Assembly: GCA_043228905.1 (NCBI GenBank)
Contig: JBHGNT010000006.1
Coordinates: 19,158,001 to 19,222,000, forward strand
Source: Azolla caroliniana
Taxonomy: Eukaryota > Plantae > Polypodiophyta
DNA length: 64,000 nt
Reading direction: 5' to 3'
Numbering within the stretch: position 1 is the stretch's first letter; each line of letters starts with the position of its first letter. Under the pieces are notes generated by a model that did no database searches, had not been told where the DNA came from, and worked only from the letters and a program-made list of their open reading frames with translations. Below, piece by piece: positions 437-28,283 of this stretch. The position numbers and the translations under genes are program-made.

Positions 437-530
437 TGGTATCAGAGCACGAGGGTTGATAACCTCTGCTGCAGACATTTACTCTTGAGAAGAAAACCCT
501 AACAGGTCGAAAACAGACACACTAGAAGAC

Positions 531-3500: not shown

Positions 3501-5561
3501 GCGCAGACCCATGGAATCGACTACGACGAGACCTTCGCTCCTGTGGCGAAGATGACGACGGTTCGTGTGGTACTAGCGGTTGCTGCGGCAAGGGGGTGGC
3601 ATCTTCACCAGATGGATGTGAAGAACGCCTTCCTTCAAGGAGAGCTTGAAGAAGAAGTCTTTATGACTCAGCCCCCCGGATTTCAATCGGAGATGAACAA
3701 ATCGGCGGTATGCTGACTGAAGAAGTCGCTTTACGGCTTGAAGCAAGCCCCCCGAGCTTGGAACGTGAAGATCACGCACCGGTTGCGTAAGCTGGGGTTT
3801 GTTGTCTCTAAGTCGGACTCTTCGTTGTTCATCCGGCAAGGCTCTGACGGTCCGGTATGTATACTCTTGTATGTGGATGATTTAGTCATCACCGGACCGG
3901 GTCTTCCCGAAATCAACCGCGTCAAGTCCCAGTTGTCGGACGCATTCGAAATGAAGGACCTGGGGGACCTTCATTATTTTCTTGGGATCGAAGTGATCCG
4001 GACCCCCAATGGCATATTGCTCTCACAACGACATTACGTGTTGAATATGCTGTATAAGTTCGGCATGACAGATTGCCGACCTGTCTCCACACCCCTGGAC
4101 CGGAACCAAAAGCTCCGTCCCAACTCCGGACCGGCCAATGAGAAACGGTTCCGACAGGTTGTCGGAAGCCTGATCTACTTAACCATCACCCGACCCAACA
4201 TCAGCTATCCGGTCGGCATGGTAAGCCAGTTCATGCAGAAGCCGACCATGGAGCACCTTCAGTGCGCGCAACGAATATTACGGTATGTCAGCGGCACTAA
4301 GGACCGGGGACTGCTATACCGGCGAGGTATACCCGAAGAGCTTGTCGGTTACACAGATGTTGACTGGGTCGGCGATGCGTCTGATCGCCGCTCCACTTCC
4401 GGATACATGTTCTCCATAGGTAGCGTGGCCGTTGCGTGGAGCAGCAAGAAGCAGCCCACAGTGGCTTTGTCAAGCACTGAGGCTGAGTACCGGGCCGCTA
4501 CTGTTGCCACCTGTGAAGCCATCTGGCTTCGGCGACTGCTGCGAGACATGCGGATCGAGGTACCGACCCCGATCCCGATTTACTGCGATAACATGGTCAG
4601 CCTGCAACTCGCCAGGAACCCTGTGTTCCATGCTCGCACAAAGCACATCGAGGTGCACTACCACTTCGTGCGTGAGCGGGTCCTGAACGGTGAAGTTGAC
4701 CTACGGTATGTTCATACGGATCGGCAAGTTGCCGACATCTTCACCAAGCCGCTCGGATCGGACAAGTTGCAGCACTTTACCGACATGCTTGGTATTCAGC
4801 ATCTCGACGTGCCACACTTGAGGGGGAGAAGCAAGGGCAAAGTCTCTACCGAAACGGGCAAAGGCCAAAAACCTGTTGAACCCGTCGGTAAGAGGAGAGC
4901 CGGAAGAAGAGGAGACAAGAAGCTGAAGGAAGCCGAGTCGACGAAGGAAGTCGACACATCCGAACAGGTCGGAGCAAGCGGCTGTGAAGAAGAGTTGTGC
5001 ACTCAGGAAGAGAAGCGCATGTTGTGCGGAGGTCATCACGACGGTACTGACCATGATACAGAGTCAAATGAAGAATTCGATTTCGGTTCACCGGCTGAAG
5101 AAGTCGAGGGAAGCATGGAGAAGGCCAGGACTCGGAAGTGGTCCGATGTGGTGAGAGGCCTGACGCCGGAAGTCGAATCGGAGTGTACCGATTCGGACAA
5201 GAGCTGGAACGAGTCGGAGACAGCTGACTCGGATCAACAGATGGATCCGGATGAGACGGATCGACTGAAGGCCAAGGGGACACGAACACAGCGGAAGTCG
5301 GTGCCATCGTGGGAGAACCGACGGATCGGCAAGCGTCGGAGTCACACCAACGTGAGTGCTGAGATGGGCCTATTGAGCAGACATGCTGACCGAGAGGGTC
5401 GAGGCGCGCAGAACCAAAGGGGTCGCGGCAAACGGGACCGGACCGGACGAGGAGCGCGAGCAAGGCGGAGTGACGCCAGGAGAAGTCGGTTGGAAGAACC
5501 GACTGCCACAGAGGTCGACACTACGACCCCACCTCAGGTTGAGCTTGAGGGGGAGTGTTGA
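531..5561 (+). pseudogene. Copia Gag-Pol polyprotein (gag CCHC knuckle, protease, integrase, RT, RNase H, long C-terminal extension) with one in-frame TGA at 3714-3716
   Basis: ORFs 531-3716 and 3738-5561 are in the same frame. Motifs [29 protein letters not shown] integrase, [15 protein letters not shown] and ADIFTK are present. The stop sits where CRLKKSLYGLKQ is expected (CGA>TGA). Confidence 0.93.
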
Positions 5562-5898
5562 GCGGCAAGCTCAACCGGAGCCGGATCGGCTGAATAAGCC
5601 GGAGCCGGTGAGCGAGACGGATCGGGCGAAACGGATCAATATGACGGTGAGCAACCGAACCGGCAAGCAGTGGAGGCCGGGTGCAATCCGTAACCGGCAG
5701 TCCAATCGGAAGCCTAGTACAGGATAGACTACTAGGTAGCTATAGTCTCGTAGTAAGTGTCTGATGCTCGTGTGAGCATTGAAGTACATGGTACTTCTGT
5801 CAGTCCCAAGAGGACTTGTATAAATAGTGCTACTTAGCACAGTGTATAAAAAAGGGTCTTGATATAATTTTGAAATTGTGTTCTGCTCTCTCTCTCTG

Positions 5899-5931
<33 letters not shown>

Positions 5932-5973
5932 GTTGTTCTCTGTTTTACGCTTCCGCAAACACTTACGTTTACA
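5556..5973 (+). repeat. 3' LTR of copia element 1
   Basis: Follows the PPT GAGGGGGAG, matches 27-436 and is followed by the TSD CAGTT. Confidence 0.96.
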
Positions 5974-8643: not shown

Positions 8644-11434
8644 AGGTCATGCCCGTAACAAGACCAAAGGGGTCGAGGAGTGCAGAACCGAACTAGACGA
8701 GGAGCACGAGCAAGGCATGGAGACGCTAGGAAGAGTCGGATGTTGACTCAAGGAGAACCTCAAGTTGAGCTTGAGGGGGAGTGTTGAGCGAGCAAGCTCA
8801 CCTTGCGCGGATCGGCTGAAGAAGCCGAGAACCGGAATGGATTGGACCAATCGGTTAGGCCTGGATCGACTGAAGAAGACAAGAGCCTGATCGGACGGAG
8901 ACCGATCAGCGATGCCGAATCTGTAGGAGCCGGAAGGCTAGTTGGAAAGATATTCCGCAAAGGAATATATTTGGGAGTTGGTGTAGGGGCTCACTTATGA
9001 GCATTCAAGTATTGAAGGTACTTGTGTCAGTCCTTTTAAAGGCTTGTATAAAAGTGCTGGCATAAAAGGCCGACTCCTTCCAATTTGTATCCTAGTGTGA
9101 ACACGTCCAAATAGTTAGGGCTTAGTATATAATAAATAACCTAACGTTGTAATTGTTGACTTCTTGATCATTGTTATATTGTGAGTCTCTGAGAGAGAGA
9201 AAGAAAGAAAGAAAGAAAGAGAATAGAAATAACAAAGCTTCCATGAAAGCTTAAGAGTGTGCTCATCTTCTTATCTTCAATATTTCTATGTTGTTTGTTG
9301 AGTACCGCTAGACAGGTCTTCATACATACTTCTACACATATTCGAACACCATATCTCACAAGTGGTATCAAAGCGACTTGTTGTTCAGTAGCAACAAACA
9401 ATAGAAAAAGTTGAAAGAGAAAAGACCAGGTTAGTGAATCTTACCTCCATAAAGAACATGGCCTCAACATCCGGTATAGGAGTTGAGATCCGAAAGTTCG
9501 ATGGCAAAAGCTTTGCCCTATGGAAGGAGATGATGCAAGACGTGTTGATCATTCGAAGACAGGTTGAAGCTATCCGGCATAGCGAAAAGCCTGTTTCAAT
9601 GTCAGCCGAAGAGTGGAGATCAATAAATGAAATCACTCGCTCCACCATTCAGATGCACCTAGCCGAAAACGTCTACTTCAACATGGCAAAAGAGACGACA
9701 ACGTTCTCACTATGGGAGAAGTTATAGGTTGTATACCAAAAGAAGTCCTCATCTTCGAAATTAATATTAATTAGGCAACTATTCAATATGAAGATGAGAG
9801 AGTCGGACCCAGCCATCTCCCATATCAACACCTTCAGTCAGGTGTTGTCTGAACTCTCCTCACAAGAGATCAACTTCGAAGAAGAGGTGAAAGCCCTTGC
9901 CCTCCTATCGAGCTTGCCGATGAGTTGGGAAGTATTCTACACGACATTTGCCAATAGCCGTTCGATCCTAAATCTAGATGAGACGATCGGCCAAGTCCTC
10001 ACCGAGGACATTCGGCGAAAATCGATGGGACTCACCATCGATGAATCGACAAAAGCCCACCACTCGACCGAGTTGATCAATTGATTGAGTCGATCGAGAG
10101 AACAAGCCGACAGAACCGGTTGGAATACCAATTGGTCGAAAATGAGGGAAGATCGACAACGGTCGAAGTCGAGAACGGTCACTCGGGCGAATTCTGCACC
10201 CATTGCAGAAAAGCCAGTCACAATATTTCCGACTGCTAGTCAATGAAGAGGAAAGAGAGTGTTCAGCGATCAGAGCGGAATCGAGGACAATCCAACTCGA
10301 ACCACTCTCCAGTCGGCAACCAACTCAATGTTGCCGACACCCGATCAGGAGAAATCCTATCCTTAGAGGATTTGATGATCGAAGAAGTCCTCTACAATAT
10401 ACAAGATGCACACATGTGGTTACTGGACTCCGGTGCCACATTTCATGTAACCCCCAACATCGAATGGTTCTCGAACTATTCGGTCGGCGCTAGCAGCACA
10501 GTCCGACTAGGCAATGGGCAAGATTGCAAAATCGCCGAAGTAGGGGAAGCACCAATTCAATTGTCAAATGGCAACACAATTGTCCTGCACCAAGTCCGGC
10601 ACGTACCCGCATTCAAAAGGAGTTTGGTCTCCATCGGCATGCTAGCCGAAGATGGGTACTGAATGAGTCGACATGGATGATCAGTCGTGGAAATCTGAAG
10701 ATTGGAAGTGGGCACAAGTACAACAACTTGTACCCAATGATGACGATCAATCCATAAGGGTCCGTGAACGTAGACGAAAAGATTGACCCAAACCTATGGC
10801 ATGGCTGACTTGACCATATGGCTCAAGCCGGACTCGATCGGTTGACGGCAGTTGGCTACATTCCAAAACTCCAAGCAAAGATAGACTTCTATGAGCATTG
10901 TTGATATGGGAAACTGGCCCGAAGTCCACACTCTCTTCATTACGAGACGGTACGACATCCCCTCGAGCTCGTGCACACAGACATATGTTGGCCTATGCTT
11001 GAGAGATCACTAGGAGGCTCCCGGTACTTCATCACATTTGTAGATGATTGTACACGAAAAGTCTGGGCCTATTCAATTAGGTCAAAAGAAGAAGCAGTCG
11101 AGGTCTTCACTCAGTGGATAATTGAAGTGGAGAACCGGTCAAGATACAGAGTGAAGACACTCCAATCTGACAATGGAAGAGAATACACCTCCCGAGCCAT
11201 CAAACAGTACCTGTCCGACAAAGGGATCCTGCACCAAAAGACCATACCATACACACCCATGCATAATGGAATAGCAGAATGGATCAACTGAACGGTCTAG
11301 GAGAGGGTGACGACAATGCTCCAAAAAGCTGGACTGAAGCTGGAGTTTTGGGTCGAAGCATTGTCGACAACAATATATCTAATCAATCTATCGACGTCAA
11401 AAGAAATCATACTTGAAGTGCCACAGGCACTATG

Positions 11435-14400
11435 TGTTAAGAAAACGTGAAGAAGGCACTCGGGCTCTTCTTATGTATGCGCGGCGGATCGTAGTGTGCT
11501 GGATCGTTAGCGTGCTCTAAACAGACAGAGAAAGGAAAGGGGACTTACCTCTGTAGTAGCAAAATGGTTTTCTTCTATTACATGTAGAGCTCAACTTGCT
11601 CTCGTCAGTCTTCTGGTCTCTCACTCTCTCTCAGAGTTCTCTACTCTCTATTCTCTGTTTTTTCTTACTACTTCTTTCCTATTCACTCACTCTTACTTTT
11701 ACCTAAGTCATAAGTTATTACACATGCAGCTAATTAGCTGCCAGTAGCTAATTAGCTGTCAGTCGCTAAATAGCTGTTCACTAGCTAATTAGTTGTCACT
11801 AGCTAAATAGCTGTTTTACCTTTTTGTTCACTAGTAGCTAAATAGCTACTATAGCTTATTTCTCATAAGCATCGCATACCATGTTGAGCTTGCTTCTCAA
11901 CACTCCCCCTCAAGCTCAACTTATCCTTTCTTGGGGTTCTCTTCAATCTTCTTTTCCATTTTGCTTTTTAGCCATCTCATCAATGTTTACAACTCCCATC
12001 ATGTTCCGAAACTGTGTATGTTTTTCCACACTCAATCCCTTTGTGAGAATATCAGCAACCTGCTGATTTGTATTCACATACACCAGATCAACTTCTCCTT
12101 CAATCACTTTTTCTCTAACAAAGTGATAATGCACCTCAATGTGCTTTGTTCTTGCATGGAACACTGGGTTCTTTGCAAGCTGAATGCTGCTCATATTGTC
12201 ACACCAGATTGTGACAGTACCGTCTATATACTCTCCCAAATCAGCAAGCAATCTTCTAATCCATACCTCTTCACAAGTGGCTATGGCAGCTCCTCTGTAC
12301 TCAGCTTCAGTACTAGACAATGCAACAGTAGCCTGTTTCTTGCTACTCCATGAAATACCTGCACTTCCCAAGGTAAACATGTATCCACTTGTGGATCTCC
12401 TGTCTGTTTGGCTTCCAGCCCAATCAGCATCTGTATATCCTTCCAGATTTATGTCTAGATCAGCCCTGTAAAATAGTCCAAAGTTCTGAGTTGCTTTTAC
12501 ATACCTCAGAATCCTTCTGATGCAGTCCAAATGTGGCTTTGTTGGCTGTTGCATAAACTAGCTGACTAATCCAACTGCATAACTCAAATCAGGTCTTGTT
12601 ATGGTCAAATAAATAAGGCTGCCCACCATAGACCTATACATGTTTACATCTTCTATTTTGGCTCCCAAATCAGCCCTCAATTTGCAGTTTTTATCAAGTG
12701 GTACAGCAATAGGTTTGCATCCAAGCATACCATACTTTTTCAACATAGTTGTTGCATACTGTTTTTGCAACATACATATACCACTTTCAGATCTGATGAT
12801 TTCAATACCAAGAAAATATCTCAGATCTCCCAAATCTTTCACATGAAACTGCATTTCCAGATTTTTTTTCAACTTTCTTATTTCATCCACGGAATCTCCT
12901 CCAATAATCAAATCATCTACATAGATCAGAATAATAACAATGCAATCATTTTCACTTTTTACATACAAAGAAGGATCAGCTTTTGACATTTTGAAACCAA
13001 GATTTTTCAGAGAATCTGAAAGTTCTCTGTGCCATGCTCTTGGTGCCTGTTTCAGTCCATAGAGAGCTTTTTTCAGCTTACATACATAATCAGGATGTTT
13101 CTTATCTTCAAAACCTGGTGGTTGACTCATATACACTTCTTCTTCCAAGTTACCATGTAAAAAAGCATTTTTTACATCCATGTGATGCAAAATCCATTTT
13201 CTGGCTGCTCCTACAGCAAGTAGTGTTCTCAAGGTTGCCATCTTTGCAACCGGTGCAAAAGTCTCATCATAATCAATCCCTTGCATCTGAGCATATCCTT
13301 TTGCAACCAATCTTGCTTTATGTCTACTTACATTCCCATTGGAGTCATGCTTTGTCTTGTAGACCCATTTGCAGCCTACCACATTTTTCTCTTTTGGTAA
13401 CTTCACTAAATCCCACGTTTTGTTCTCAGCCAATGCATCAATCTCTTCTTGCATTGCATCCATCCATTTCTTCTCAGATTTTGCTTCTTCAAAGCTGTTT
13501 GGGTCAGGGATCTGTACCACCTTAGACATATATGCATAGTGCATAGCCATATATGTATCATACCCAAATCTTTCCACAGTCTTTTTCTCTCTATCTGATC
13601 TTCTCAGTTTCTGATTTGCATTCTTTATTGCCTTTTCCATACCAGGGATTTTCATTTCCTGTATTCCAAGGAACTCATCCAAAGACATATCTGAATCTTC
13701 ATCTTCCATGTTTTTTGATAGGTCATCCGGGATTTCATACTCTGGCATTTTCTGTTTTCCTTTTTTGTCATCAGATTTTTTCTGTCCAGTTTTTCCACTC
13801 CATGAATTTGAATCAGATTTACCATCTGAGCTTTTTGATGGTCCAGAACATTCTGTTGATGTTGGACTTTGCTGTCCAACCTTGTCTCCATCTCTGTGAC
13901 AGTCTTCTACATTTTCTGATCTGTCTTTGTCTTCAATCTCATTGTCTTCATCAGTCTCTGGATTCTGTTTTGGACTATACCAGCTGGCTAACTCATCAAA
14001 GATTACATCCCTACTTGTCACAATCTTCTTTGTTACAGGGTTATAGCATCTATACCCTTTTTGTTCTTCTGAATAGCCAACAAAAATACATTTTTCTGCC
14101 TTTGGATCCAGCTTACTTCTTACTTCTGCAGGCACATGTACATATGCAAGGCATCCAAACACTTTCAAGTGTTGTAAGCTAGGCTTCCTGCCATAAAAAC
14201 ACTCTTCAGGAGTTGCCTCATGTACTCCTGATGTAATACATCTATTTAAAATGTAATTTGTTGTATTTACAGCTTCTGCCCAATAGTATAATGGCATGTT
14301 CTTCTCAGTCATCATTGCCCTTGCTATGTTCACCAAAGTTCTGTTTTTCCTCTCAGCAACTCCATTTTGCTGTGGAGTATATTAGCATGTGAACTGTCTT

Positions 14401-16880
14401 CTTATTCCCTGATTACACAAAAAATCAGAAAATTCATTGGAGAAATACTCTCCTCCTCCATCAGATCTCAAACATTTTATCCTTGTACCAGCCTGCTTTT
14501 CTACCATGCATTTAAACTTACGAAAACAGTCAAATACTTCACTTTTCTCCTTCATGAAGTACACCCATGTCTTCCGTGAACAATCATCAATAAATGTAAC
14601 ATAAAATCTGCATCCACCAATAGATGCATTCTTTGTTGGTCCCCATACATCTGTATGTACCAAATCCAACAGATTTTTGCTTACATGTCTCTCATGAGGG
14701 AATGGCAACCTGTTTTGCTTACCATATTGACATGCTTCACATACTTTTCCCATTTCACACTTTTTCAAGTTTGGCAGTCCAGCCACTGCATCTTTTCTCA
14801 ACATATTCTTTAATGTTTGCATACTTATATGGCCAATCCTTTTATGCCACATTTCCACATCTGAGATTACACTCGTTCCATTTGCAAACATGGCTGAAAT
14901 CTGTTTGGGCATTTCTACATCCAAGATAAACATTCTTCCTTGTCTCTTCCCTTTTGCAATGAGCTTCCCATTCTTTTCTATATAGCATCCACTTTGCTTA
15001 AACTTCACTTGCATACCTTGCTCTACAATCTGTCCAACAGAAATCAGATTCTTAGCAAGGTTTGGAACATGCATCACATTCAACATATACTTGGTTTTTC
15101 CTCTTTCTTCCCACAATGGGATATCTCCAACATGTTTTATTTGGTGAGTTATGTCATCACCTGTTTGTACATAACCAGGAACCTCTGGTTCTCTTAAACT
15201 CTCAAACCAATTTGCATGTCCAGTCATATGGTTAGATGCCCCCGAGTCTACATACCTCGTAAACTCTTCATTACATTTCTGTGAGCTTTCAGCCACTGCT
15301 GCTATCTCATGTTGCACTACAAAAACACCTTCCTTTTCACAATCTTCACTAGTAGAGGCATAGTTACTCTGTTGTCCTTTTCCTCTTTTCTCATCATTTT
15401 GTTTCTTATAACATTCAGCCTGTGTATGGCCTGGTTTACCACAATACCAGCAGCCATCATCATTTACATAAGTTTGCTTACCTCTACCTCGGTTGCTCCC
15501 CCTGCCTCTGTTGTTGTTTCCTCCTCTATGAGCTTGTTGTCCTCTTCCTTGAAAGCCATTATTATTGGTTCTTCCTGAGCCAAATCTTCCATGGCCTCTT
15601 CCTCGGCCTCTTCCGGCATTATTATAGAGGGCTTGCCCCTCGTTCTCTGAGTTTCCTTTATTTGCATCATCCATCTGATTCCTTTCCTCTACCACATGCA
15701 TTGAGACCAGATCTGAAAAACTTGGGATATTATCCCTTGTGAGCATAGAAGTTTTAAAACTCTTGTATTGAGGTCCTAAGCCTCTTAAGCATATTTCCAC
15801 TTTGTCATCATCTTCTATCTTCACATTGATAGAAGCAAGTGATTCACATATACTCTTGATTTTTAGGGCATATTCATTTATTGACATCTTACCTTTCTCC
15901 AAGGTATTTAGCTCAGTCTTTAACTGGAGCTTTCTAGCCTTTGTGTTCACAGCAAACAGTTTTACCAAGTTGTCCCAAGCTTCTTTTGGGAGCATAGCAT
16001 CTTGTATATGCCCAAGCATTGAATCTGAGATGCTGAGTGATAGCCAATGCATTACTTTCCTTGCCCCTTGATTCCAATCTTTAAATGCCTTAATATGTGC
16101 AGCTGTTGCATTCTCTTCTGGGATCTCTGGAGCCTCTTCTAGGTCTCCTTCAATGTAATCCCAGTATCCTTTCCCCATCAGAAAGTTTGTCATTCTGAAT
16201 TTCCACGCCGGGAAATTGTTTTTATCTAATTTCTCTGTGACCATTTGGCCTACATTCTCTGCAGCCATTTTTTTCCTCCCAAAAAACCAGGGTTTTGCTT
16301 TAGTTACTTCAACAAGTAACTTTCTGATTTCTGATCAGCAACCAGAGAAATAACTTTCTCAGATTAAGGCACTGCTATACTCTTCCTTACGAGCTACTCT
16401 GCTCTGATACCATGTTAAGAAAACGTGAAGAAGGCACTCGGGCTCTTCTTATGTATGCGCGGCGGATCGTAGTGTGTTGGATCGTTAGCGTGCTCTAAAC
16501 AGACAGAGAAAGGAAAGGGGACTTACCTCTGTAGTAGCAAAATGGTTTTCTTCTATTACATGTAGAGCTCAACTTGCTCTCGTCAGTCTTCTGGTCTCTC
16601 ACTCTCTCTCAGAGTTCTCTACTCTCTATTCTCTGTTTTTTCTTACTACTTCTTTCCTATTCACTCACTCTTACTTTTACCTAAGTCATAAGTTATTACA
16701 CATGCAGCTAATTAGCTGCCAGTAGCTAATTAGCTGTCAGTCGCTAAATAGCTGTTCACTAGCTAATTAGCTGTCACTAGCTAAATAGCTGTTTTACCTT
16801 TTTGTTCACTAGTAGCTAAATAGCTACTATAGCTTATTTCTCATAAGCATCGCATACCATGTTGAGCTTGCTTCTCAACA
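11435..16880 (-). mobile_element. Full-length, very young Ty1/copia element (AT-rich relative of element 1)
   Basis: 468-bp LTRs at 16413-16880 (5') and 11435-11902 (3'), differing at 2 positions by my reading. TSD CTATG at 11430-11434 and 16881-16885. PBS at 16401-16412. PPT at 11903-11911. Confidence 0.97.
11943..16268 (-). pseudogene. Copia Gag-Pol with two in-frame stops (14382-14384 TAA, 12558-12560 TAG)
   Basis: Three ORFs in one frame. Motifs [30 protein letters not shown] and ADILTK. The stops replace R in CRYTP and Q in VSQFMQ. Confidence 0.93.
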
Positions 16881-19800
16881 CTATGGTCATGCAAATAGCC
16901 GACCTACAATAGGCTCCACATATTCGGATGCGAAGCCTACGCATTCATCCCTAGGGAGAAAAGAACCAAGTTGGCACCCCATGCAACGAAATGCATATTT
17001 CTCGGTTATGGAACCGATGGGGAATTCGGCTACAGGCTATGGGACCCAGAGAACCGGAAATTGATTCGGAGTAGTGATGTGGTCTTCAATGAAGACTCTA
17101 TTCTCTCTGCGAGGAACCAGCAGAAAATAGTTGGTAAAAAGGTCTCTTTCGAAGTTGATAGAGACGTCGTAGAAAGACCGACCCAACGGGTTGAATCAGA
17201 GATTCAACAAACAGTTGAACTCAACCAAGCCGACAACACACCTGTCGACTCCAAATCGGTAGGAGGTCCACTAGTCTAACTCGAAGACAAAGCCAAATCG
17301 ACAAGAGTCGCAAAAGGCAAAGTCAACAAGGTGCGAGCCGAAGACGACAAAGTCAACCCAACTAAGACACCCAAGGTCAAAGGGAAAAACATATCTGAGT
17401 CAGCTAAGTTCCCCCCTCCTGAAGAAGGGGAGGATGATGTGACCTCACTGAAATACTATCATAGGGGCGAGTCACCCAACATGACTACTTATATAAACGG
17501 TTCAGGAAGTACCTATCGACCAACATAGTCGATCGAAGGATCCAAACCAATCAATACAGCACCCAAGAGATCTGGACGAGTTCGAAGGCCAACAAAGTTC
17601 TAACAATCGACCTCGACTATGTCAACTACACCGGTGCAGGCGAACCAAGCACATACGAAGAAGCTAAAGCAGCATCGGACGTTGATACATGGCTACAAGC
17701 CATGAGATGTGAGATGGACTCAATCCATCATAACAATACATGGGAGTTGGTCGAACTACCAGCTAGCAGAAAGTCATTGCCCTACAAATGGGTTTTCAAA
17801 CACAAATATGTATCTGACTCAGAGAAGCCCAAGTACAAAGCTCAGCTCATCGCAAAGGGCTTCAAGCAAGAACATGGAGTTGACCACGACTAGATATTTT
17901 CTCCAGTAGTCAAGATGACCACCTTTCGACTCCTACTAGGGGTCATGATAACAGAAGACCTAGAGTTGGAGCAACTAGACGTCAAGACGGCATTCCTACA
18001 CGGAGATCTGGAAGAAGACATCGTCTCAACCGGAAGACTTCACGGCGATAGGGGAGGAAAGTCACCTCATATGCCGATTGAAGAAAAACCTTTATGGCTA
18101 GAAGTTTGACTCCTACACTACGCAACTTGGATACCGTCGATCTGACTCCAACCCATGTCTATATACTTAGCAATTGTCCAACGAGTCCTGGATCTATCTA
18201 ATCCTATACATCGATGACATGCTGATTGCAGGGAGAAATGAAGCAGAAATCAAAAAGCTAAAGTGGAACCTTCACGAGAAGTTCGCGATGAAGGAACCAC
18301 GACAAGCCCAACACATATTGGGCATGAGAATAGAGTGAAATCGGATGACAAAGACTCTCCAACTCTCCCAGTCCGATTATATTCGAAAGGTGTTGAAACG
18401 CTTCAACATGGAGAACGTGAAGCTTGCACCAACACCGCTTCCGAAGTCGATCCGACTATCAGATAGAGACTCTCCTTCGACGAAAGAGGGGAAAGAGCTT
18501 AATGGAAAGATACCCTACGCATCGGCCGTAGGAAGTATCGTGTACGCGATGGTGGCGACCCGACCTGATCTTGCTTATGTTGTAGGGGTCATCAGTTGAT
18601 ATATGTCAAACCCAGAACGGAAGCATTGGGAGGTCATCAAGCACATCTTCAAGTACCTGAGAGGGACCGAAGATGTACAACTGACTGTCGGATTGACAAA
18701 CCCGACCGAAGTCGAAGGCTACACCAATTCCTATTACGTCGGGAATTCGGACAATCGGAAGTCCACATCAAGTTATGTTTTCACCTATGGCGGCGGCGCC
18801 ATATCATGGAGGTCGAAGCTGCAAGAGTGCATGACTCTGTCTGCCACAGAGGTTGAGTATATAGCAGAGCAACATCAGATGCAGTGAAAGAAGCAATCTG
18901 GTTGCACCGGTTGTCAACTGACTTCTTTGTGACAAGTTGAATTGACCATCAAGCGTCAACCATCTGTTGCGACTCACATAGCACAATACACCTCATCAAT
19001 AATCATGTCTATCATGCGAAGACAAAGCATATTGAGGTGCGGTATCATCATATTCAAGAGCTTGTAACAGAGAAGAAGCTTGATGTTTGGAAGATTGACA
19101 TTGAGGTGAACATCACCGATTTCCTGAGGAAGCCACTCCCAAATCAACGTTTCGGAGCACTGAGGACAAAGATGGGACTATGACAAGCGATCGAGCAGAA
19201 GAAAGCCGAACACGGAGTAGAAGGTAAGTTGAAGATCCAACCAACTCGGACAAGCCAAATCAAGCTAGATACCGACCTTATCTCTGTCGACTTGGCTATA
19301 TGTCGAACAACTTGTAACCATAACTTTAGATTAAAGTTGTAATCTAGGGTTACGGAGGAGATAACCTCATACAATTGTAATTAGAAAAATTAGTCCTTTT
19401 ACGGGGGAGTTTGTTGGCATAAAAGGCCAACACCTTCCAATTTGTATCCTAGTGTAAACACGTCCAAATAGTTAGGGCTTTGTATATAAGGAATAACTTA
19501 ACGTTGTAACAGATGACTTATTGATCATTCTTATATTGTGAGTCTCTAAGAGAGAGAGAGAACAGACATAACAAAGCTTCCATTAAAGCTTAAGAGCGTG
19601 TTCATCTTCTTGTCTTCAATCTTTCTATGTTGTTTGCTTAGTACTTCTAGACAAGTCCTCATACATACTTCTGCACATATTCGAACACCATATCTCACAA
19701 AAAGTGCTCTTTGAGCACATTCGATGTACAAAGTATTGAGTTTATTTTTGAAATAGAGTTTATGTTCGGCTCTCTTTGTCTCTCCCGTGTACTCTATATT

Positions 19801-19918: not shown

Positions 19919-21579
19919 ACTCACTATACAATGTTAGGTTTGGGCTTATATACTCAAGCCCTAACTCGAGAACATATTCACACTTAAGGTTACAATGTGG
20001 ATGGAGTTGGCCTTTTATGCCAATGGGTAATAGATCTTAGCAGGCATAGTTCATCGTTGGTTTGTCTCTTTGAAAGTAGCTTCAAACTCAGTGTGAAAGG
20101 CTGGGAATTCATCCAAAAGCAGTGATGTTGTTTCCATCAAGGGAGTGAATCACAACTCCATTGGTCCCGTCAATAGTGAACCCAAGAGACCGACCTGGTA
20201 GGAACCTGTGGCGCTTCCAAAAGCAATGATGTTGTTTCCATCAAGGGAGTGAACCACGCCTCCATTGGTCCCATCAACAGTGAACCCAAGAGACCGACCT
20301 GGTAGGAACCTGTGGTGTAACGAGGCGGATGATGAGGCAAATTTGATTAAGGAAACTGCGTAGTCGTGACCGCGTTCCATCAAACTTATCGAGAAGGTTG
20401 ACCTTGGGTTCATAGTAGGGTGGTAGTGGGTTGAGTTTGATGGTTGGGGTAACTGAGGATGTGGCAAACTGAAGATCAAGTAAAGATTTACAAAGGGTAG
20501 CATTCTCAGCTAGGAGTTGTTTTAAAGTTGTGAGTATTTGAGGTAGGCTATCGGTAGGATGTGACATGGCTTCCGATGTGAGGTTAACGGAGAGGGTGTC
20601 ACATACATGACAACAATTATGTCAAGATTCGAACTCTTGACCTCTTGTATTAGATAATCAAGTGTTATATTGTAACCAACACATCCCGGTATATGATCGT
20701 GTTATGTATATCTTCGTAGATTATCTATTCACGTTCTAGGAGTTTTTAGAAAGTTCTAGAACTTGAAGGTTCTAGAGGGTTCTAGAATATTCTCCAAAAT
20801 ATTCTCTAGAATATTCAAATGCATGTACTTCAACTCACAATATAAATACTTGTAACCTCCTTGGTCCCTTTCAAGGGATTCAACACCAGTCATTGACGCA
20901 TGAATATAGTGTTCTCGTTTCACCTCATCTTGTTTCATTGATCTTCATTTCTATCTTCATACACTTGTGTCTTTCCTAGCTTCTTGGTGTGTTCGTGACA
21001 ATTTGAATCCCTTCCAACTGGAAGCATCAACCGTCTTCATCATCAACCTTGCTTCTAGAGTTACCATCATCATCGTCCTTGCTTCAAGAGTTACCGTCAT
21101 CAACATCCTTGTCTTTGACATCATCATTTTTAGCACCTCTTCGCCCAACCTTCATTGTCATCAACATTACTTTACATGGTCTTTCATTATCATCATTGCT
21201 CCGCTCTCTTCATTGTCATTGTTATCATTTATAGGTATCCTTTTGCATCACAATTTTGGTGAGGATTGCGTTCAATCGCTCACCTTCCCAGTTCATGTGG
21301 GGGTTACAACTGCTCACTCTCCTGGTGGGGATCGAATCATTGCTCGCTTGCACTCCATTTTCATTTTAGTTCAAGTTTTGCACTACTTCTCATTCGCGAG
21401 GACCGATTTCGATCGCACACTTTCTAGTTTCAGTGGGGGTCACAACCGCTCACTCTCTTGGTGGGGATCGCGTTGGTTTCTCGCTAGCGCTGCCGTTTGT
21501 GCCGTTTTTGGGGTCAACCTCGACTATTTACCCTCTCATAATAGAAGAAGGCGAGTCGACCGATTCACTTGCACTCCTT

Positions 21580-22060
21580 CACTCATTCGTGTTCTAGTTC
21601 CCGGTAAGGACCGCATGGTCGCTCACTCCCGTTCGTGTTCCAGTTTTTGGTTAGGACCACATGGACGCTCACTCCCTTTTGTGTTCTAGTTCTCGGTGAG
21701 GACCACATGGTCGCTCACGCCCGTTCGTGTTTCCGATGAGGACCGCACATGGTCGCTCATGTTCTGATTCCCAATGACGGCCACACATGGTTGCTCACGC
21801 TTGCTCGTGTTCAAGTTCTCGGTGAGGACCGCATGGTCGCTCACTCTCATTCGTGTTCCAACTCCTTGTGAGGACCGCATGGTCACTCACTCTCGTTCGT
21901 GTTCCAGTTTTCGGTGAGGACTCACTCCCGTTCATGTTCCAGTTCCCAGTGAGAACCGCATGGTCACTCACGCCCATTCATGTTCCCGATGAGGACTGCA
22001 CATAGTCGCTCATGTCCGTTGGTGTTCGTGTTTCTAGTGAGGACAACACATGGTTTCTCA
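21580..22060 (+). repeat. Tandem array of about 10 degenerate 30-47 bp hairpin-forming units
   Basis: Recurrent core GTGAGGACCGCATGGTCGCTCAC followed by CCGTTCGTGTTC. Confidence 0.85.
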
Positions 22061-22488
22061 TGCCCACCACTTTTTGTTCACCCCTACACTGTGCTTTCGA
22101 AAAGGCGGTTATAAAGGGGAGGATAATGTCACAGGCATGTCCACAACTATGTCGAGATTTGAACTCTTGACCTCTTGTATTAAATAATCAAGTGTTATAT
22201 TGTAACCAACACATCCAAGTACATGATCGTGTTATGTATATCTTCGTAGATTATCTATTCATGTTCTTGCTATGACTGTAGGATCGTGACAAGGAGTGCA
22301 AGCGAACTAGCACAACTATTGAGATGATATGGGAAGAGTAAGAAAAGAAATAAAGCAATGATGCAAGTGAAACTAAGGTGAGTAGGATTAGAGGTGAACA
22401 AGAGTAAAAGAGAATGAGAGAATGAGATGAAAGACAAAGAGAAGAGTGAGTGAGAAAAAAGAAAAACTTAAGAAATTTTCATTAGAAA

Positions 22489-22540
22489 GACCTTGTGCAA
22501 ACTAGTTTCGCTCTAGGTAGAGCTCATTAGTGCCAAGGTC
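22489..22540 (-). ncRNA. Minimal type I hammerhead ribozyme motif (this copy has a G5>A core change)
   Basis: Minus strand reads GACCTTG-GCA CTAATGA GCTCT-ACCT-AGAGC GAAA CTAG TT TGC-A-CAAGGTC. Stem I is 10 bp with a bulge, stem II is 5 bp, and stem III is the minimal palindrome ACTAGT. Confidence 0.82.
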
Positions 22541-22754
22541 ATTTACAACAAGAGGGTAGGTTTATATAGGGGGAAGAGAGAGAGAGAGAGAGAGAGAGAG
22601 AATAGGAGTTTAATGATGGGAGAGAGGGAAACGGGGAATTGTGATAGGTAATGGATTGGTTAGTGAAAGTGGGTTAGAGGGGGGTTATATGTATGTATAT
22701 GATAAGTGATAGGTGGGGGTGGGTGTGGGGGTGGGATATAAAAGGCATATAGTA

Positions 22755-24617
22755 TTAAGTGGGAGTATTTATGGATTTATATTTAGTTTTGACGAGAAGG
22801 GAATGAATGGACTTAGACTTAGTCCAACATATGAAGGGTCGCAGTAGTTCGGATAGTTGGGGATGTGTGGCTAAATATGTGTGGAGGTTTTCTAGCATGT
22901 CGTGAATTCCTAATCTAGGGGTATCTTTCGTATACCTAAGTTTGAAGATGACAGGTATAAGGGTACTTTTAGGTTTTCTGCTAAATACTAGTGATTTCCT
23001 AACGCTAAATGGCACCTTTTTATAATTCTCTAATATAAAAGAAAGGGGATATCCTCTCTTAACTAATCTACTAAAAAATAGTTTTTTCATTCGAAGGAAA
23101 CCTAAGGGGGTACTTTCTCTAATTAGGTATCGTTTTAGTTCATTAATAATAAAATGACGTTTTAAGTGAAGGGGGTGAACTGACGAGAATGAGAGATATT
23201 GGTAGGCATTTTGGGGCTTTTGGTAGCAATTAAAGGAGAAATGTGAATTCTTTAGGTTAATCCATAAATCTAAGAACGGTAATCTAAAGGGAGAAGTGAT
23301 GATGGTAATTTTGATGCAATTATTAGTGGAGGTGTTATAAAACTGGAGGTAATTTTCTAATTCGGGTTTAGTACCTATCCATATCCCGAATGCATCATCT
23401 ATATATCTAGTGAAATAAAAAAGATTAGGGTGTGATGGTTGGGAGTTCTCTAAGTGAGCTAAGAATAGGCATGCATAAACTACAGAAAAATTACTACCCA
23501 TGGTTGTACCCTTGACTTTTTGATAGATCATGTCATCAAAGGATAGAAAGTGATATTCTAACGTGAGTGCGCTAAGTGTATAGATAAGGTTAGTTTTAGA
23601 AGATGAAAAATGTGGGGTAATCATTTTTCGTAAAGCTTGGAGTCCTAACCTAGGGGGTATGTTGGGATATAAAGATTCAACATCAAAGGTGAAGATAAAG
23701 CTATTAGGGGGTGGGTTGAGATGTTCTAAAGTCTGGACAAGGGAATGTGAGTCTTTCAAATATTGTTTTTGAAGGAGAAGGATAGGCATGAGTTGGTGGT
23801 GAAGCCATTTTGATGTTTGTTCAAAAAGGGAGTTATTGTATGAGCAAATAGGTCTAAAACCTATTGGGTTTTTATGGAGTTTTGGGAGGAAATAGATATT
23901 GCATACTTTGTACCCTTTTGAGGGTTTATGTAGTATGTAATTGGCTTCTATGTTGGATAGGGTACCAAGATGGTTATTAACAATGCTTTTCAATCTATAG
24001 GATAATTCCTCAAGTGGATAGTGGGAGACTTTTTTATATGTATTAGTATCAGAAAGGTGTTCTATAGCTTTGTTATAGTACGTGTCCTTATCAAGAACAC
24101 ACACTCCAACATTCTTGTCAGCAGGTAGGATTATGATTTTGTTGTTTTTCTTAAGAGATTGTAAGGCTAGTGATAAGTGAGGTGCAATCCTAGTGGGTTT
24201 TAATTTGAGTGTATGAAGTGTGTCCCTAAAGATAGTTTGGTGTTTAGATATAATGTTTTCTAGGGGAGTGTACTTAGTAGTAGGTTGCCAACTAGGGTTA
24301 GGTAGCTTAAAGGGATTTTGGGGCAAATTATCCACATCTTTAAAAAAATGTTTAAGTCGAAGGGTCCTACTTAGGCTATCAAATTCTTTAAGTAGGGTAG
24401 GGGATGATGGTGGAGAAGATGGGAGGATGTGTTTCAAACCTAGGCTAAGGAGTTGTGTCTCATGTTTAGAGAGGGAATAATTAGAGTGGTTGTGGATCCT
24501 ACTAATTCTAGGTTTATTAAGGAAAGGTGTCCAAAATTTATTACGAGGTTTCCTACTATGGGTCTTTTTCACATATGGGGAGAAGGGAAAATTAGATGTA
24601 TGACGTCCTAACCACAT
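22755..24617 (-). CDS. Penelope-like reverse transcriptase (no endonuclease domain visible)
   Basis: Motifs LLSLGLKH, LPADKNVG, YFLPKLHK, FRPICS, FDVESLYPNIP, GTTMGSNFS, RYIDDAFGIW, LPFLDL and YQKP...YL...S.HP are diagnostic of PLE RTs. The ORF ends after the thumb region with no GIY-YIG motif. Confidence 0.9.
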   Translation of the reverse strand: MWLGRHTSNFPFSPYVKKTHSRKPRNKFWTPFLNKPRISRIHNHSNYSLSKHETQLLSLGLKHILPSSPPSSPTLLKEFDSLSRTLRLKHFFKDVDNLPQNPFKLPNPSWQPTTKYTPLENIISKHQTIFRDTLHTLKLKPTRIAPHLSLALQSLKKNNKIIILPADKNVGVCVLDKDTYYNKAIEHLSDTNTYKKVSHYPLEELSYRLKSIVNNHLGTLSNIEANYILHKPSKGYKVCNIYFLPKLHKNPIGFRPICSYNNSLFEQTSKWLHHQLMPILLLQKQYLKDSHSLVQTLEHLNPPPNSFIFTFDVESLYPNIPPRLGLQALRKMITPHFSSSKTNLIYTLSALTLEYHFLSFDDMIYQKVKGTTMGSNFSVVYACLFLAHLENSQPSHPNLFYFTRYIDDAFGIWIGTKPELENYLQFYNTSTNNCIKITIITSPFRLPFLDLWINLKNSHFSFNCYQKPQNAYQYLSFSSVHPLHLKRHFIINELKRYLIRESTPLGFLRMKKLFFSRLVKRGYPLSFILENYKKVPFSVRKSLVFSRKPKSTLIPVIFKLRYTKDTPRLGIHDMLENLHTYLATHPQLSELLRPFICWTKSKSIHSLLVKTKYKSINTPT

Positions 24618-24721
24618 GAAAGTATCTAAAGTAGAAGTAGGTCTATCGAGAAGGTAAAAGAGACGTTTCGCGGGATGTATGGCTTGCCGAAACTATTTAC
24701 TATCCCGTTTGGCACGCCTAG

Positions 24722-25681
24722 CTACACGTTTTTTGTCCTAACATTATTACATGGGAAAGTTTGTCGTTTTGCGGGAAGGGGGCGATTATTGTGAGTACGG
24801 ATAGGTTGTTTTCTATGAGGGATTTCATATAAGTGTGGGGGAAATTTAGAGGGTGCGGTAGAATATTGAAATCTACTAGAAGTAGAAGGGGAGTTATGTG
24901 TAAAGAAGGGGGGGGTATGTGTAGGAAATGCATGAAAAGGGGGAGGGGTATAGTTTGGAAATAGGGAAACGTTGTGGGGGTTATTAGGGGGGAAATGCAT
25001 AGGGGCATGGTTAAAAAATGGGGGAGGGGTATGAGGGGGGTTTATAGAAAATAAAGGGGGGGCATGCATCAAATTTGTAGGAAGTAAGGAGGGGGGGGGA
25101 GGGGCATGATTAGGGTTAAACACATATGGGAAGTGAGAGGGTATGTTTGAAATTGTCTGCAAGGGTGGGCTGGGGAGGAGAGCAGGAGGAGGAGGGCCGA
25201 GAGGGAAAGATGGAAGGTCGTTCGTGCCATGGCTTGCATGATCTCCTGCACAACCGCCATGGGGATACACTTCTTGTCTTATGTTGGCACGTGTGCCGCT
25301 TCCATAAGATGTACGGCCTTCGCATTGGATGGACCTCCCATATCGGCCCGTAGGATAATTACCGCCACGGCTCATGTGGCCGCCGTTATGGTGTGACAAT
25401 CGTCCACCATCGCCGCACGTGTAGCCACTATCGAAGTAAGATCTTCGCTCTCTGTTGTATCCTTCCAATTCAAATTCCGGCGAGGTATGGTGGTGATGTA
25501 TAGGCTCGTGTGAGGCTGAAATATATTGGTTTGAATTTCATTCGATGTTGGACAGATGCCCTCGGTGGGTATGTCGCTTCCGCCGCGCATGAGGGAACCG
25601 TGTGCCCTATATGGTTAGTTGGGTTGTAGATAGGATTAAAGAAAGGGCGATTAGGGTTATAAAGTAAGACTCGTGGGCCAT
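24722..25681 (-). pseudogene. PLE ORF2: low-complexity protein (Gly/Arg/Tyr-rich, then Pro/Phe/His-rich, then basic), probably fused to RT by a -1 frameshift
   Basis: Open from 25468 to 24722. It extends in frame to an ATG in good context at 25681 if one TAG and one TGA are read as CAG and CGA. Confidence 0.5.
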
Positions 25682-25736
25682 AATGGTTTTGATGAGGATT
25701 TCTACTTACTTGATTATTTGTTATGTTGCAGATGTA

Positions 25737-26756
25737 TTACGGGAGGAGGTTCCGGTGGTTCAACGATCGAGGATTTCTTTTTGCTGGAAAATTAGGGTTA
25801 GGGTTAGCAATAGGGTTAGATTTTTGAAAGGGATTAGGTTTTAGGTTCTTTGTAGAGGATTTTAGTTTGGGGTTGGGGTTAGAGTTAGAGTTAGCATTAG
25901 CTTTAGGGTTAGGTTTTTGAATGGGATCATTTGTAGAGGATTTCTTTGGTTTTTCACTCCCAATGTAATTTGGAATTGTAAAGGGACTGTTATAAACATT
26001 ATAATCTTCATTATCACTCATCTCTATGTCGATTTCTCTAACATTGTTGTGCATGCTACTCTCTGCTTTGTCTCTACCGATAGTGGCCTTCTTTCTAATA
26101 GCCGCGGTAATAGAATATGTAACTTCTACTTCATCACAAGATCTAAGTATTTCTGTGGCAAACTCTTGCTGCCAATGTGCCATTCTATCTTGGAATGAAT
26201 CAGGACCTACTAGTGATGTTACTTCTTGTATGAATGGGGGTTCTTGCATTGTTTCCATTATTTTTACTATGTCGGTACGAACTTGATTAGGAAAATCATC
26301 TATGGCTTTGGTTAATGCGTGGACTAATAAGTCTAAATGCCTAATATAGCATGTTGTAAGATCCTTGCGATATTGTGTTGTGAGGGCTAGAAATTCTGTT
26401 CGCAAGCTCGAATTGATCTCCTCATGACCTATTGTTAATTTCGGTGGGTGAACCCTAAGATTATGAGGGGTGATGTCATGTGAGTTTAGATAAGAGATAT
26501 GCGTATACGTATTCTTAGCTTCTTGTGTGCGCCTATAAAGATGTTTAAATTCAGATGCCACTTTACGCTTATAGTCGTCAAAGTGGTGTGAGGACATATA
26601 TGAGTCGGAGGAATTTACCTTTTCATTACTAGGATTAGAGTTGAGGAAAGTTGGGGATAATGTAGGGGCGCGTTGTCGTTTATTAGAACGTTTGTTGGCG
26701 CTTCTAGGTTTTGTTGGTGTCGGTGTAGTTGATGCCATCGCTGCAAAAGTCATCAT
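25737..26756 (-). CDS. PLE ORF1, unknown function (basic N-terminus, predicted helical core, Asn-Pro-Lys-rich tail)
   Basis: About 340 open codons inside the PLE boundaries, on the same strand as RT. ATGs at 26756 and 26738. No recognisable domain. Confidence 0.6.
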   Translation of the reverse strand: MMTFAAMASTTPTPTKPRSANKRSNKRQRAPTLSPTFLNSNPSNEKVNSSDSYMSSHHFDDYKRKVASEFKHLYRRTQEAKNTYTHISYLNSHDITPHNLRVHPPKLTIGHEEINSSLRTEFLALTTQYRKDLTTCYIRHLDLLVHALTKAIDDFPNQVRTDIVKIMETMQEPPFIQEVTSLVGPDSFQDRMAHWQQEFATEILRSCDEVEVTYSITAAIRKKATIGRDKAESSMHNNVREIDIEMSDNEDYNVYNSPFTIPNYIGSEKPKKSSTNDPIQKPNPKANANSNSNPNPKLKSSTKNLKPNPFQKSNPIANPNPNFPAKRNPRSLNHRNLLP

Positions 26757-28283
26757 ATGTTGTGGAGTTTTTAGAATGTTCAAGTTCTAGAGGGTTCTAG
26801 AATATTCTCCAAAATATTCTCTAGAATATTCTAATGCATGTACTTCAACTCAAAATATAAATACTTGTAACCTCCTCGGTCCCTTTCAAGGGATTCAACA
26901 CCAGTCATTGACGCATGAATATAGTGTTCTCATTTCGCCTCATTTTGTCTCATTGATCTTCATTTCTATCTTCATACTCTTGTGTCTTTCCCAGCTTCTT
27001 GGTGCGTTCGTGACAGAGGGGGAGAGAGCAAAAGGAAGGTGAACAAACTATTAAAGACAAAAGTAAAAACGGAATTACAAGAGCTTACTAGTTGGCGCAA
27101 GGACGCGATTGTCAAACGCAAAAGAGTGAATATCATTAACTAGTGTTGTTCACCTTGAATTCATTCAAGGTGAACTCAAATCTTTATACTAAGCGGCGTG
27201 CATGCCTATTGCATGCATGTGATACAATAGAGCATGTATGTACACATGCATGTGCCAAGTGTATATAATACAAGGGAGCAAACATGCACATGATCGTATA
27301 CTGGATATGTTGGTTAACACATAACACTCGATTATAATGCAAGATGTCAAGAGTTAGAATCTTGACATAACCACTGTCATGTCCGTGACAATATCGCTCT
27401 TTCACTTTGAGTTCACCAAATAACGTCGCCAAGTTACATGCATTCGTGTGCTACTTGAGCGGGACCACCAGGGACTTGAACTAGAGAGGATGGATGATTC
27501 GAAGGCTCGTCAGTGTTGAATGATTGTCAAAGTGGAAAGATTGCCGAACTCGAAGGCTCTATAGAGTCGAAGGTAGTAGCAATTCGAACAGTGAGTTATG
27601 TTAATTAATCTAAAGAAACATGAGATTATGAATATATTTTACAATACTAAGTCTAGATTTTCCTTTATATAAGCTAAAACATTTCATTATGAAAAAAATT
27701 CCCTTTATAAAATAGGGTTTACAAGATGTTGGAGTTTTTTATTACAATAATGATAATTTTTCAGGAATTAAACATGAACTAAGAACCCTAAATCTTAATG
27801 AAGAAGATGAAAAATTAAACCCTAAAACAATAAGTATCATGTGGAGAATAAGAAGAAGATAAAGACAAAAAGAATAAGAGTGAAGCTTCTGGGAGAAAAT
27901 CCTCGAGTTTCGATGTAAACTCCCAACAATCAATGGCCGCGTTGCCTCTTGTTGATAACGGTTTTACACGCCCTCTTGATTTGCTACCTTCGCTTCCTAA
28001 TCCAACAAAGTTTTTACATCTCTTTCTCTCTCTCCCCCCTTTATTTGAATTCTCTTCACCCTTTTATAAGATTAAGGAGGCTTTCTTCTCAAATAAAAGT
28101 ATGTGCTTTTTTAATTTTATTGCACGTCATGCTTTTTCTTTCCTAAATTAACAATAAAGTCACAAAATGTCTTCACACCATCAATTTATCAATCAACCTT
28201 TTAAATAATCCTAGGTTAACTAAAATTCTCCAATTGAACATCCCACATCACAACAACGAGAAACTCAAATATCTAGTGATCGA

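What the first reader, a model, noticed from the sequence alone, without database searches (positions are those of the whole stretch)
20841..27188. Tf1-like self-priming geometry co-varying in two different LTR elements
Seen: neither element has a tRNA PBS. In the non-autonomous element, TTGAATCCCTT (21003-21013) lies 2 nt after the 5' LTR and is the exact complement of AAGGGATTCAA (20873-20883), which begins 32 nt after the TATA start at 20841. In the host gypsy (minus strand), TTGTTCACCTT (27046-27036) lies 2 nt after the LTR and is the exact complement of AAGGTGAACAA (27156-27146), again 32 nt after the TATA start at 27188. The sequences differ but the length (11 nt) and spacing are the same. 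Known: S. pombe Tf1 primes from the first 11 nt of its own mRNA. Inference: tRNA-independent priming in a plant chromovirus-like family and its non-autonomous partner.
Basis: partly seen in the sequence, partly recalled or inferred. Interest (0 to 1): 0.75.

Follow-up and report, generated by a model that had tools for sequence, protein, structure and literature searches.

The report
Self-priming fern retrotransposons with miscopied fossils
Two nested jumping genes in what is likely a fern carry an 11-letter site that pairs with their own end repeat, and dozens of miscopied relatives in the genome are joined exactly at that site, so these elements likely start copying themselves with the front end of their own RNA, as yeast Tf1 does and as was already predicted for their moss relatives.

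Summary
Both 11-mers are perfect complements of a site 32 nt after a TATA box. The pairing holds across five primer sequences in this genome, with compensatory changes: 82 of 92 LTR/PBS pairs match at 10-11 of 11 positions, against at most 38 after shuffling. The autonomous relatives are chromoviruses whose RT groups with fungal and vertebrate rows, away from seed-plant rows. Self-priming was already predicted for plant Tcn1 chromoviruses (PMC6317226), and this scan found it before in two moss genomes, so the core idea is not new.

Three things are added: a likely fern host, a non-coding family that keeps its own primer, and a recurrent class of miscopied insertions. These read U3-primer-inverted U5/R-internal-3' LTR and make up 42 of 1806 PBS junctions in family C and 16 of 155 in family A. 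In C, 15 of 19 resolvable events have target-site duplications. The inverted piece stops at predicted transcript nt 10-18 in 10 of 32 events and never at 1-9, the boundary Tf1-type cleavage predicts. Family A does not show this pile-up. The start site could not be mapped (no raw RNA reads), and no named Tf1 or Tcn1 sequence was in the tree.

The parts
20592..20596 (+). left target-site duplication (GAGGG) of element A
20597..21000 (+). 5' LTR of non-coding element A (TG...CA)
20841..20848 (+). TATA box of A
   Evidence: same position in family copies
20873..20883 (+). predicted self-primer of A (predicted transcript nt 1-11)
   Evidence: start site inferred, not mapped
20884..20890 (+). start of R after the primer (CACCAGT), a motif shared with families B, D, F and, with one change, C
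21003..21013 (+). primer-binding site of A, 2 nt after the LTR
21014..22112 (+). non-coding internal region with about 46-bp tandem repeats; the open frame 20910-21686 has no Pfam match
22113..22126 (+). polypurine tract of A
22127..22267 (+). 3' LTR of A, left part (129 of 141 nt identical to the 5' LTR)
22268..26768 (-). later insertion with a 645-aa RT ORF (22755-24692), Penelope-like by my recollection of such RTs; not part of the priming system
   Evidence: (RVT_1, E 7e-6)
26769..27015 (+). 3' LTR of A, right part (231 of 247 nt identical to the 5' LTR)
27016..27020 (+). right target-site duplication of A, inside the leader of B
27036..27046 (-). primer-binding site of host element B
27049..27390 (-). 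5' LTR of B (ends TTAATA here; TTAACA in several other copies)
27146..27156 (-). predicted self-primer of B
   Evidence: start site inferred
27167..27175 (-). inverted copy of the primer at the end of U3 of B (9-bp stem)
   Evidence: p 0.0005 against shuffles
27181..27188 (-). TATA box of B
20060..20567 (-). broken, truncated gag of B
   Evidence: tblastn to family C gag, E 1e-14; for gag of other B copies

Best explanation
Both elements carry an 11-nt PBS that is complementary to their own LTR, and they likely prime reverse transcription like yeast Tf1: the predicted first 11 nt of the RNA would fold onto the PBS, be cut off, likely by RNase H, and serve as primer. Shown: the complementarity, its covariation across five primer sequences, the chromovirus pol of autonomous relatives, and a recurrent class of insertions joined exactly at the primer/PBS duplex, most with target-site duplications where both ends could be placed. 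Inferred: the start site at TATA+32 to +34, the cut after nt 11, and that the non-coding family A borrows enzymes from autonomous families. The miscopied insertions likely arise when minus-strand strong-stop DNA (primer-AC-inverted U5-inverted R, ending near nt 12) jumps to a wrong internal site and U3 is added through primer homology, after which integrase still finds two good ends.
For: Exact complementarity beyond chance. Five common primer/PBS pairs with 19, 17, 13, 10 and 5 perfect cases; 82 of 92 pairs at 10-11 of 11 against a shuffled mean of 25 and maximum 38. A compensatory change within young family C and another between C and F. No 3'-anchored tRNA match longer than 2 nt among 88 predicted tRNA sequences. 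Predicted pairing probability 0.90-0.95 in six natural 5' ends. Family C pol has RT, RNase H, integrase, Tf2-type SH3 and chromodomain. B-, C- and D-family RTs fall on the fungal/vertebrate side of a 100/100 split from seed-plant and charophyte rows. Junction U5 end-GT-PBS-inverted U3 found 23 times in A and 42 times in C, control 0; 21 of 30 examined matches in the B/D-primer families are also genuine junctions. TSD at 4-5 of 5 letters in 15 of 19 resolvable C events. The inverted R-U5 piece ends at nt 10-18 in 10 of 32 C events (binomial 7e-7) and 6 of 17 B/D events (0.002), and at nt 1-9 in none. The same junction appears in a contig of an independent public run.
Against: The start site is unmapped. 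The tRNA set is incomplete (14 anticodon labels, dominated by a few, some probably false calls). In family A the break points are scattered: only one lies at nt 10-18 and one locus (L332, a junction in a 3' LTR) reaches nt 3. The two side duplexes of the Tf1 'pretzel' were not beyond chance in any of 7 copies (p 0.13-1.0). The 92 pairs are not an unbiased sample: many loci were fetched by an exact PBS pattern, and the rule allowed only TATA offsets 32-34. A DNA hairpin opened at its loop edge would give the same nt-12 boundary as RNA cleavage. No named Tf1 or Tcn1 sequence was in the tree.
Confidence: 0.83

Rival explanations
1. The same 11-mer primes, but it does not come from the RNA's own 5' end in cis: it comes from the partner RNA in the particle or from the 3' R copy, or transcription starts elsewhere.
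For: No start-site data. Hybrid LTRs with a crossover at nt 7-18 (L463) and an A-like element with a B-type U3, primer and PBS (L426) suggest mixing of RNAs. The pretzel side stems are not significant.
Against: Complementarity in A, B and F stops exactly at a pyrimidine/A step 32-33 nt after TATA, a usual plant start position (recalled). The cis fold is favourable. The nt 10-18 boundary fits a template whose first 11 nt are gone.
Confidence: 0.09
2. The miscopied junctions are made by host recombination or repair between the two 11-bp inverted repeats after insertion, so they say nothing about priming; the geometry alone is then the only evidence.
For: Primer and PBS are inverted repeats about 130-340 bp apart. 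Joins show 1-6 nt of microhomology. Family A breaks are scattered.
Against: A clean flip would keep the PBS and the whole internal region, and none of the 31 distinct C events fetched at length looks like that. Nine of these 31 have an inverted internal block directly after the flipped piece, which needs a sense-strand template. Short palindromic insertions (LTR-GT-PBS-inverted U3) have their own 5-bp TSD (L342; L404).
Confidence: 0.05
3. A host tRNA or tRNA fragment primes, and the self-complementarity is incidental.
For: Only part of the tRNA set was tested. A 9-nt internal match to a tRNA-Arg exists but starts 5 nt after the LTR, not at the PBS start.
Against: No PBS starts with TGG. Five different PBS sequences each track their own LTR. 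The best 3'-anchored exact tRNA match is 2 nt.
Confidence: 0.03

Closest known systems
Plant Tcn1 chromoviruses (PMC6317226, passages and one supplementary table row; PMC2864245, passages)
   Same: Ty3/gypsy chromovirus with separate gag and pol frames, class I-type chromodomain, 5-bp TSD, about 5.7 kb, no tRNA PBS. REXdb predicts self-priming for 83% of 1500 Tcn1 elements.
   Different: Reported there only from mosses and club-mosses, and a PCR survey found none in ferns; this host is likely a fern. No non-autonomous self-priming family and no miscopied junction class appeared in the passages read. Clade membership was not tested against a named Tcn1 sequence.
Tf1/Tf2 of Schizosaccharomyces pombe and the Tf1/sushi group (PMC7175516, PMC10085805, passages)
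   Same: 11-nt primer complementary to a PBS right after the 5' LTR, with cleavage between nt 11 and 12; the boundary seen here matches.
   Different: Tf1 is shown by experiment, these only by sequence. The two side duplexes of the Tf1 pretzel were not significant here.
Integrase-independent Tf1 insertion through single-stranded PBS (PMC11042837, passages)
   Same: The copied primer at a cDNA end drives aberrant joins.
   Different: There the PBS tail anneals to genomic homology or to an existing element and gives tandem copies. Here the join is inverted, inside the element's own left end, and most resolvable events keep a 5-bp TSD.
TAR (Houba, Osr-1) copia elements (PMC6317226, passages)
   Same: Predicted self-priming in plants.
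   Different: Ty1/copia, unrelated polyprotein.

Membership tests
Tf1/sushi group (self-priming chromoviruses) | PBS next to the 5' LTR complementary to an LTR sequence, not to a tRNA 3' end | tested here: met
   tRNA set incomplete
Tf1/sushi group (self-priming chromoviruses) | primer is the 5' end of the transcript | not testable with these tools
   no raw RNA reads listed; position inferred from TATA spacing
Tf1/sushi group (self-priming chromoviruses) | cleavage between nt 11 and 12 by RNase H | tested here: inconclusive
   indirect boundary at nt 10-18 in families C and B/D, not in A; a hairpin-edge cut would look the same
Tf1/sushi group (self-priming chromoviruses) | three-duplex pretzel fold | tested here: inconclusive
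   central duplex strong; side stems of 3-5 bp, not beyond chance in 7 of 7 copies
Tf1/sushi group (self-priming chromoviruses) | Ty3/gypsy pol order PR-RT-RH-IN with chromodomain | tested here: met
   family C and D copy L229. B copies have gag-PR-RT-RH and partial IN; no chromodomain hit in six decayed B-like loci, none of which was seen to reach that region. The window's own A and B carry no pol
Tf1/sushi group (self-priming chromoviruses) | RT groups with fungal/vertebrate chromoviruses, not with tRNA-primed plant clades | tested here: met
   100/100 split; rows are labelled by host only, midpoint root
Tcn1 clade | RT-RH-IN clusters with Cryptococcus Tcn1 and moss/Selaginella Tcn1 references | not testable with these tools
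   no named reference among the 240 homologs listed; nearest named row is a fungal protein at 66% identity
Non-autonomous LTR element (TRIM/LARD type) | two LTRs, PBS, PPT, TSD, no coding capacity, many copies | tested here: met
   155 exact PBS junctions. Pfam was run only on the window's copy; frames in 36 other loci were inspected by eye
Non-autonomous LTR element (TRIM/LARD type) | identified autonomous partner | tested here: inconclusive
   U3 start shared with B; single hybrids with B-type (L426, L415) and F-type (L463) U3-primer halves

The most novel reading that the evidence does not exclude
Self-priming has a built-in error mode that leaves a fossil record: roughly 2-10% of primer-site junctions belong to integrase-inserted copies whose left end is U3 plus primer plus inverted strong-stop DNA, and their break points map the RNA cleavage site at nt 11/12 from genome sequence alone. 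That would be the first direct trace of the Tf1 mechanism in a plant, here in a fern and including a non-coding hitch-hiker family, and a ready test for every clade where self-priming is only predicted.
Probability: 0.55. Interest if true: 0.68.

Novelty: new variant of a known kind. Interest (0 to 1): 0.5.

Why it matters
Self-priming is shown by experiment in fission yeast and, in the papers read here, only predicted for plants from sequence complementarity. The miscopied insertions give a second, mechanistic line of evidence that needs only a genome assembly, and the same junction search can be run on moss Tcn1, rice TAR or vertebrate sushi elements. A likely fern host also bears on the proposed fungus-to-moss horizontal transfer, which rested partly on the clade's apparent absence from ferns.

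Tried and rejected
Start-site mapping: no RNA holder listed; only contigs could be laid, and they cannot show a start. Pretzel side stems and the R/U5-end helix looked covarying by eye but were not beyond chance. A U3 'anti-primer' hairpin as a general rule: significant only in B (p 0.0005), weak in C2, A and D, absent in C1 and F, so rejected as general. The RT first found beside a B LTR (L065) belongs to family C, not B. One search used a family C reference on the wrong strand and one search had an offset error; they were redone and their faulty parts are not used. The value 'nt 2' for L376 and 'nt 1' for L315 are alignment artefacts on inspection; L376 was counted as 29, L383 as 24 and L390 as 34 by eye. 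L349 was dropped (normal 5' LTR), as were duplicates L353, L354, L387, L418 and L419. Rfam on 20000-28000 gave nothing, and the insert's RT has no PDB match. The primary Levin papers (PMC230564, PMC109269) and the review PMC6388632 are not held, so Tf1 details come from secondary passages. The metagenome scan gave mostly distant elements: 6 of 26 loci with a repeat pair had a self-match of 10 nt or more, and several of the 26 pairs are not LTRs.
Full report
1. Observation. The four 11-mers, their spacing from TATA (32 nt) and from the LTR end (2 nt) are as described. Shuffled LTRs reach an 11-nt match in 7 and 2 of 20000 trials. Element A spans 20597-27015 with a GAGGG duplication, about 92-94% LTR identity, a non-coding repeat-rich interior and a PPT; its 3' LTR is interrupted by a 4.5-kb RT-bearing insert. 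A sits 15 nt past the PBS of element B, which here has only a 5' LTR, a leader and a broken gag. A and B share their first 130 nt at 77-81% identity, so they are relatives.

2. Host. The window's PPR protein has its best named hits in Adiantum and Ceratopteris. A cox1 segment on an organelle-like contig has five in-frame stops at positions where I recall Arg or Gln; such U-to-C editing is, from memory, typical of ferns, hornworts and lycophytes and not of mosses. The host is therefore likely a fern. An earlier scan note on this genome called it likely a moss; my calls do not agree.

3. Families. A has 155 exact LTR-end/PBS junctions; no coding interior was seen in those inspected. B copies are decayed but some carry gag, PR, RT and part of IN. 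A full-length sister with the same primer exists (D, L229). Family C is young and autonomous: LTR identity up to 100%, pol of about 1200 aa with chromodomain, 1806 exact junctions. Family F is another autonomous relative. All share LTR end-(G/A)T-PBS and a CACCAGT-like start of R after the primer.

4. Covariation. A rule that did not use primer-PBS pairing found 92 LTR/PBS pairs in the loci held: 64 perfect and 82 at 10 or more of 11, against a mean of 25 and a maximum of 38 when PBSs were dealt out at random. The sample is biased, since many loci were fetched by PBS pattern and TATA offsets were limited to 32-34. Five common pairs occur. C1 and C2 differ by one compensatory change, and F differs from C1 by another; four C copies are mismatched C1/C2 mixes. 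One metagenome element (L235) shows the same design with another primer, at 10 of 11 against its 3' LTR.

5. tRNA test. Among 88 distinct predicted tRNA sequences (14 anticodon labels, an incomplete and noisy set) the best 3'-anchored exact match to either PBS region is 2 nt, and the best internal match is 9 nt, off the PBS start.

6. Clade. In a 70-row RT/RH tree, B, C and D rows sit with fungal, frog and fish rows, split 100/100 from seed-plant and charophyte rows (two short rows were left out by a 250-aa filter; midpoint root; no named Tf1 or Tcn1 row). This is where PMC6317226 places Tcn1.

7. Miscopied insertions. Locus L016 showed an LTR followed by GT, the PBS and then the reverse complement of U3. 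Pattern searches found this junction 23 times in A (up to 1 mismatch), 42 times in C (exact) and 35 times for the B/D primer, with controls of 0, 0 and 1. Of the 30 B/D matches examined, 21 are true junctions and 9 failed the TATA test, mostly normal PBSs read backwards. As shares of exact PBS junctions these are 42 of 1806 in C and 16 of 155 in A (the 16 counted by hand). Read in the element's sense, the typical structure is intact U3, primer, AC, inverted U5-R of variable length, a jump into internal sequence, and a normal 3' LTR. After removing 3 duplicates and 1 normal LTR, C has 38 events. Both ends could be placed in 19: 11 have a 5/5 TSD, 4 have 4/5 and 4 have 3/5 or less. A has five events at 4-5 of 5; most others were not resolved. 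Two short palindromic insertions have their own TSD (L342, L404). A contig in an independent run shows the same joint (whether that run is RNA is only guessed), which argues against an assembly artefact.

8. Boundary. Six of the 38 C events run through the whole LTR into U3. Of the other 32, ten stop at predicted nt 10-18 and none at 1-9 (binomial 7e-7; 2e-5 after allowing for 23 windows). In B/D, after removing 2 duplicates and 2 whole-LTR cases, 6 of 17 stop at 15-17 and none earlier (three positions read by eye). Joins carry 1-6 nt of microhomology. Family A does not show the pile-up: among 24 loci one stops at 16, several at 20-57, and one 3'-LTR case reaches nt 3. Strong-stop DNA made on a template that has lost its first 11 nt should end at nt 12; with an outside primer it should reach nt 1. 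Nine of 31 C events carry an inverted internal block right after the flipped piece, as expected if strong-stop DNA primed at an internal site on the RNA. A folded-back plus-strand strong stop opened at its loop edge would give the same boundary, so the boundary supports use of the duplex during replication more firmly than it proves RNA cleavage.

9. Mechanism. Shown: complementarity, covariation, junction class, TSDs, boundary in C and B/D. From established Tf1 work (secondary passages): primer = first 11 nt, RNase H cut, PBS copied from the primer. Inferred: the start site, the cut, and trans-mobilisation of A. Single hybrids join A-type R-U5 to an F-type U3-primer within 12 shared nt (L463) and to a B-type U3-primer with a matching B-type PBS (L426); these hint at co-packaging but could be host recombination.

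10. Literature. PMC6317226 (passages; one supplementary row) predicts self-priming for most plant Tcn1 elements and lists the clade in mosses and club-mosses only. PMC2864245 (passages) found no Tcn1-like clones in ferns by PCR. PMC10085805 (passages), PMC7175516 and PMC11042837 describe Tf1. PMC3350952 and PMC8282616 were read as passages and add nothing on ferns. Searches for Tcn1 in ferns, for non-autonomous self-priming plant elements and for the inverted junction class listed no paper whose title or abstract opening describes them. I saw listings only, the library lacks most subscription papers including the primary Tf1 work, and fern genome papers may list Tcn1 in supplements I did not see. 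The scan's own notes hold two earlier moss cases of the geometry and none of the junction class.

11. Verdict. Real feature, mechanism of a known kind, already predicted for close relatives. The added value is the likely fern host, the non-coding self-priming family and the fossil junctions. Interest 0.5.

Noticed in passing
window 22268-26768 (-): 4.5-kb insert in the 3' LTR of A with a 645-aa open RT frame (RVT_1, E 7e-6) and two upstream frames without Pfam match; about 16 bp of the LTR are missing at the site. Penelope-like by recollection only.
   Followed up: partly
window 27167-27175 (-); L403-L430: U3 ends in an inverted copy of the primer in B/D subfamilies, with sequence changes on both arms. 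It would be transcribed only at the RNA's 3' end, where it could mask the second primer copy. Not general: absent in C1 and F.
   Followed up: partly
L186: Family C copy whose 5' LTR has lost R-U5 between the U3 arm and the PBS, which are direct repeats of each other.
   Followed up: no
L463:1490-1620: Solo hybrid LTR: family F U3 and primer joined to family A R-U5 within 12 shared nt; the A half is 98% identical to the window's 5' LTR.
   Followed up: partly
L426, around 1500: A-like non-coding element with B-type U3, primer and PBS; the PBS is followed by 12 nt complementary to the end of U3.
   Followed up: partly
L314:905 and L217:9363: A sixth primer/PBS type in a further gag-bearing family, at 9 and 10 of 11.
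   Followed up: no
window 27-5973 and 9055-19700: A copia element with 96% LTR identity, and a decayed copia holding a younger copia (11435-16882, LTRs 99.6% identical).
   Followed up: no
window 49262-51484 (+): PLS-class PPR frame with E motif, best named hits in ferns.
   Followed up: partly
L494:1501-2454: cox1 segment with five in-frame stops, consistent with heavy RNA editing; eight near-identical copies in the assembly, one on a large contig.
   Followed up: partly
L234, L262, L273, L282, L298, L303: Distant metagenome chromoviruses with 10-13 nt self-complementary PBS and no TATA found at the usual distance.
   Followed up: no
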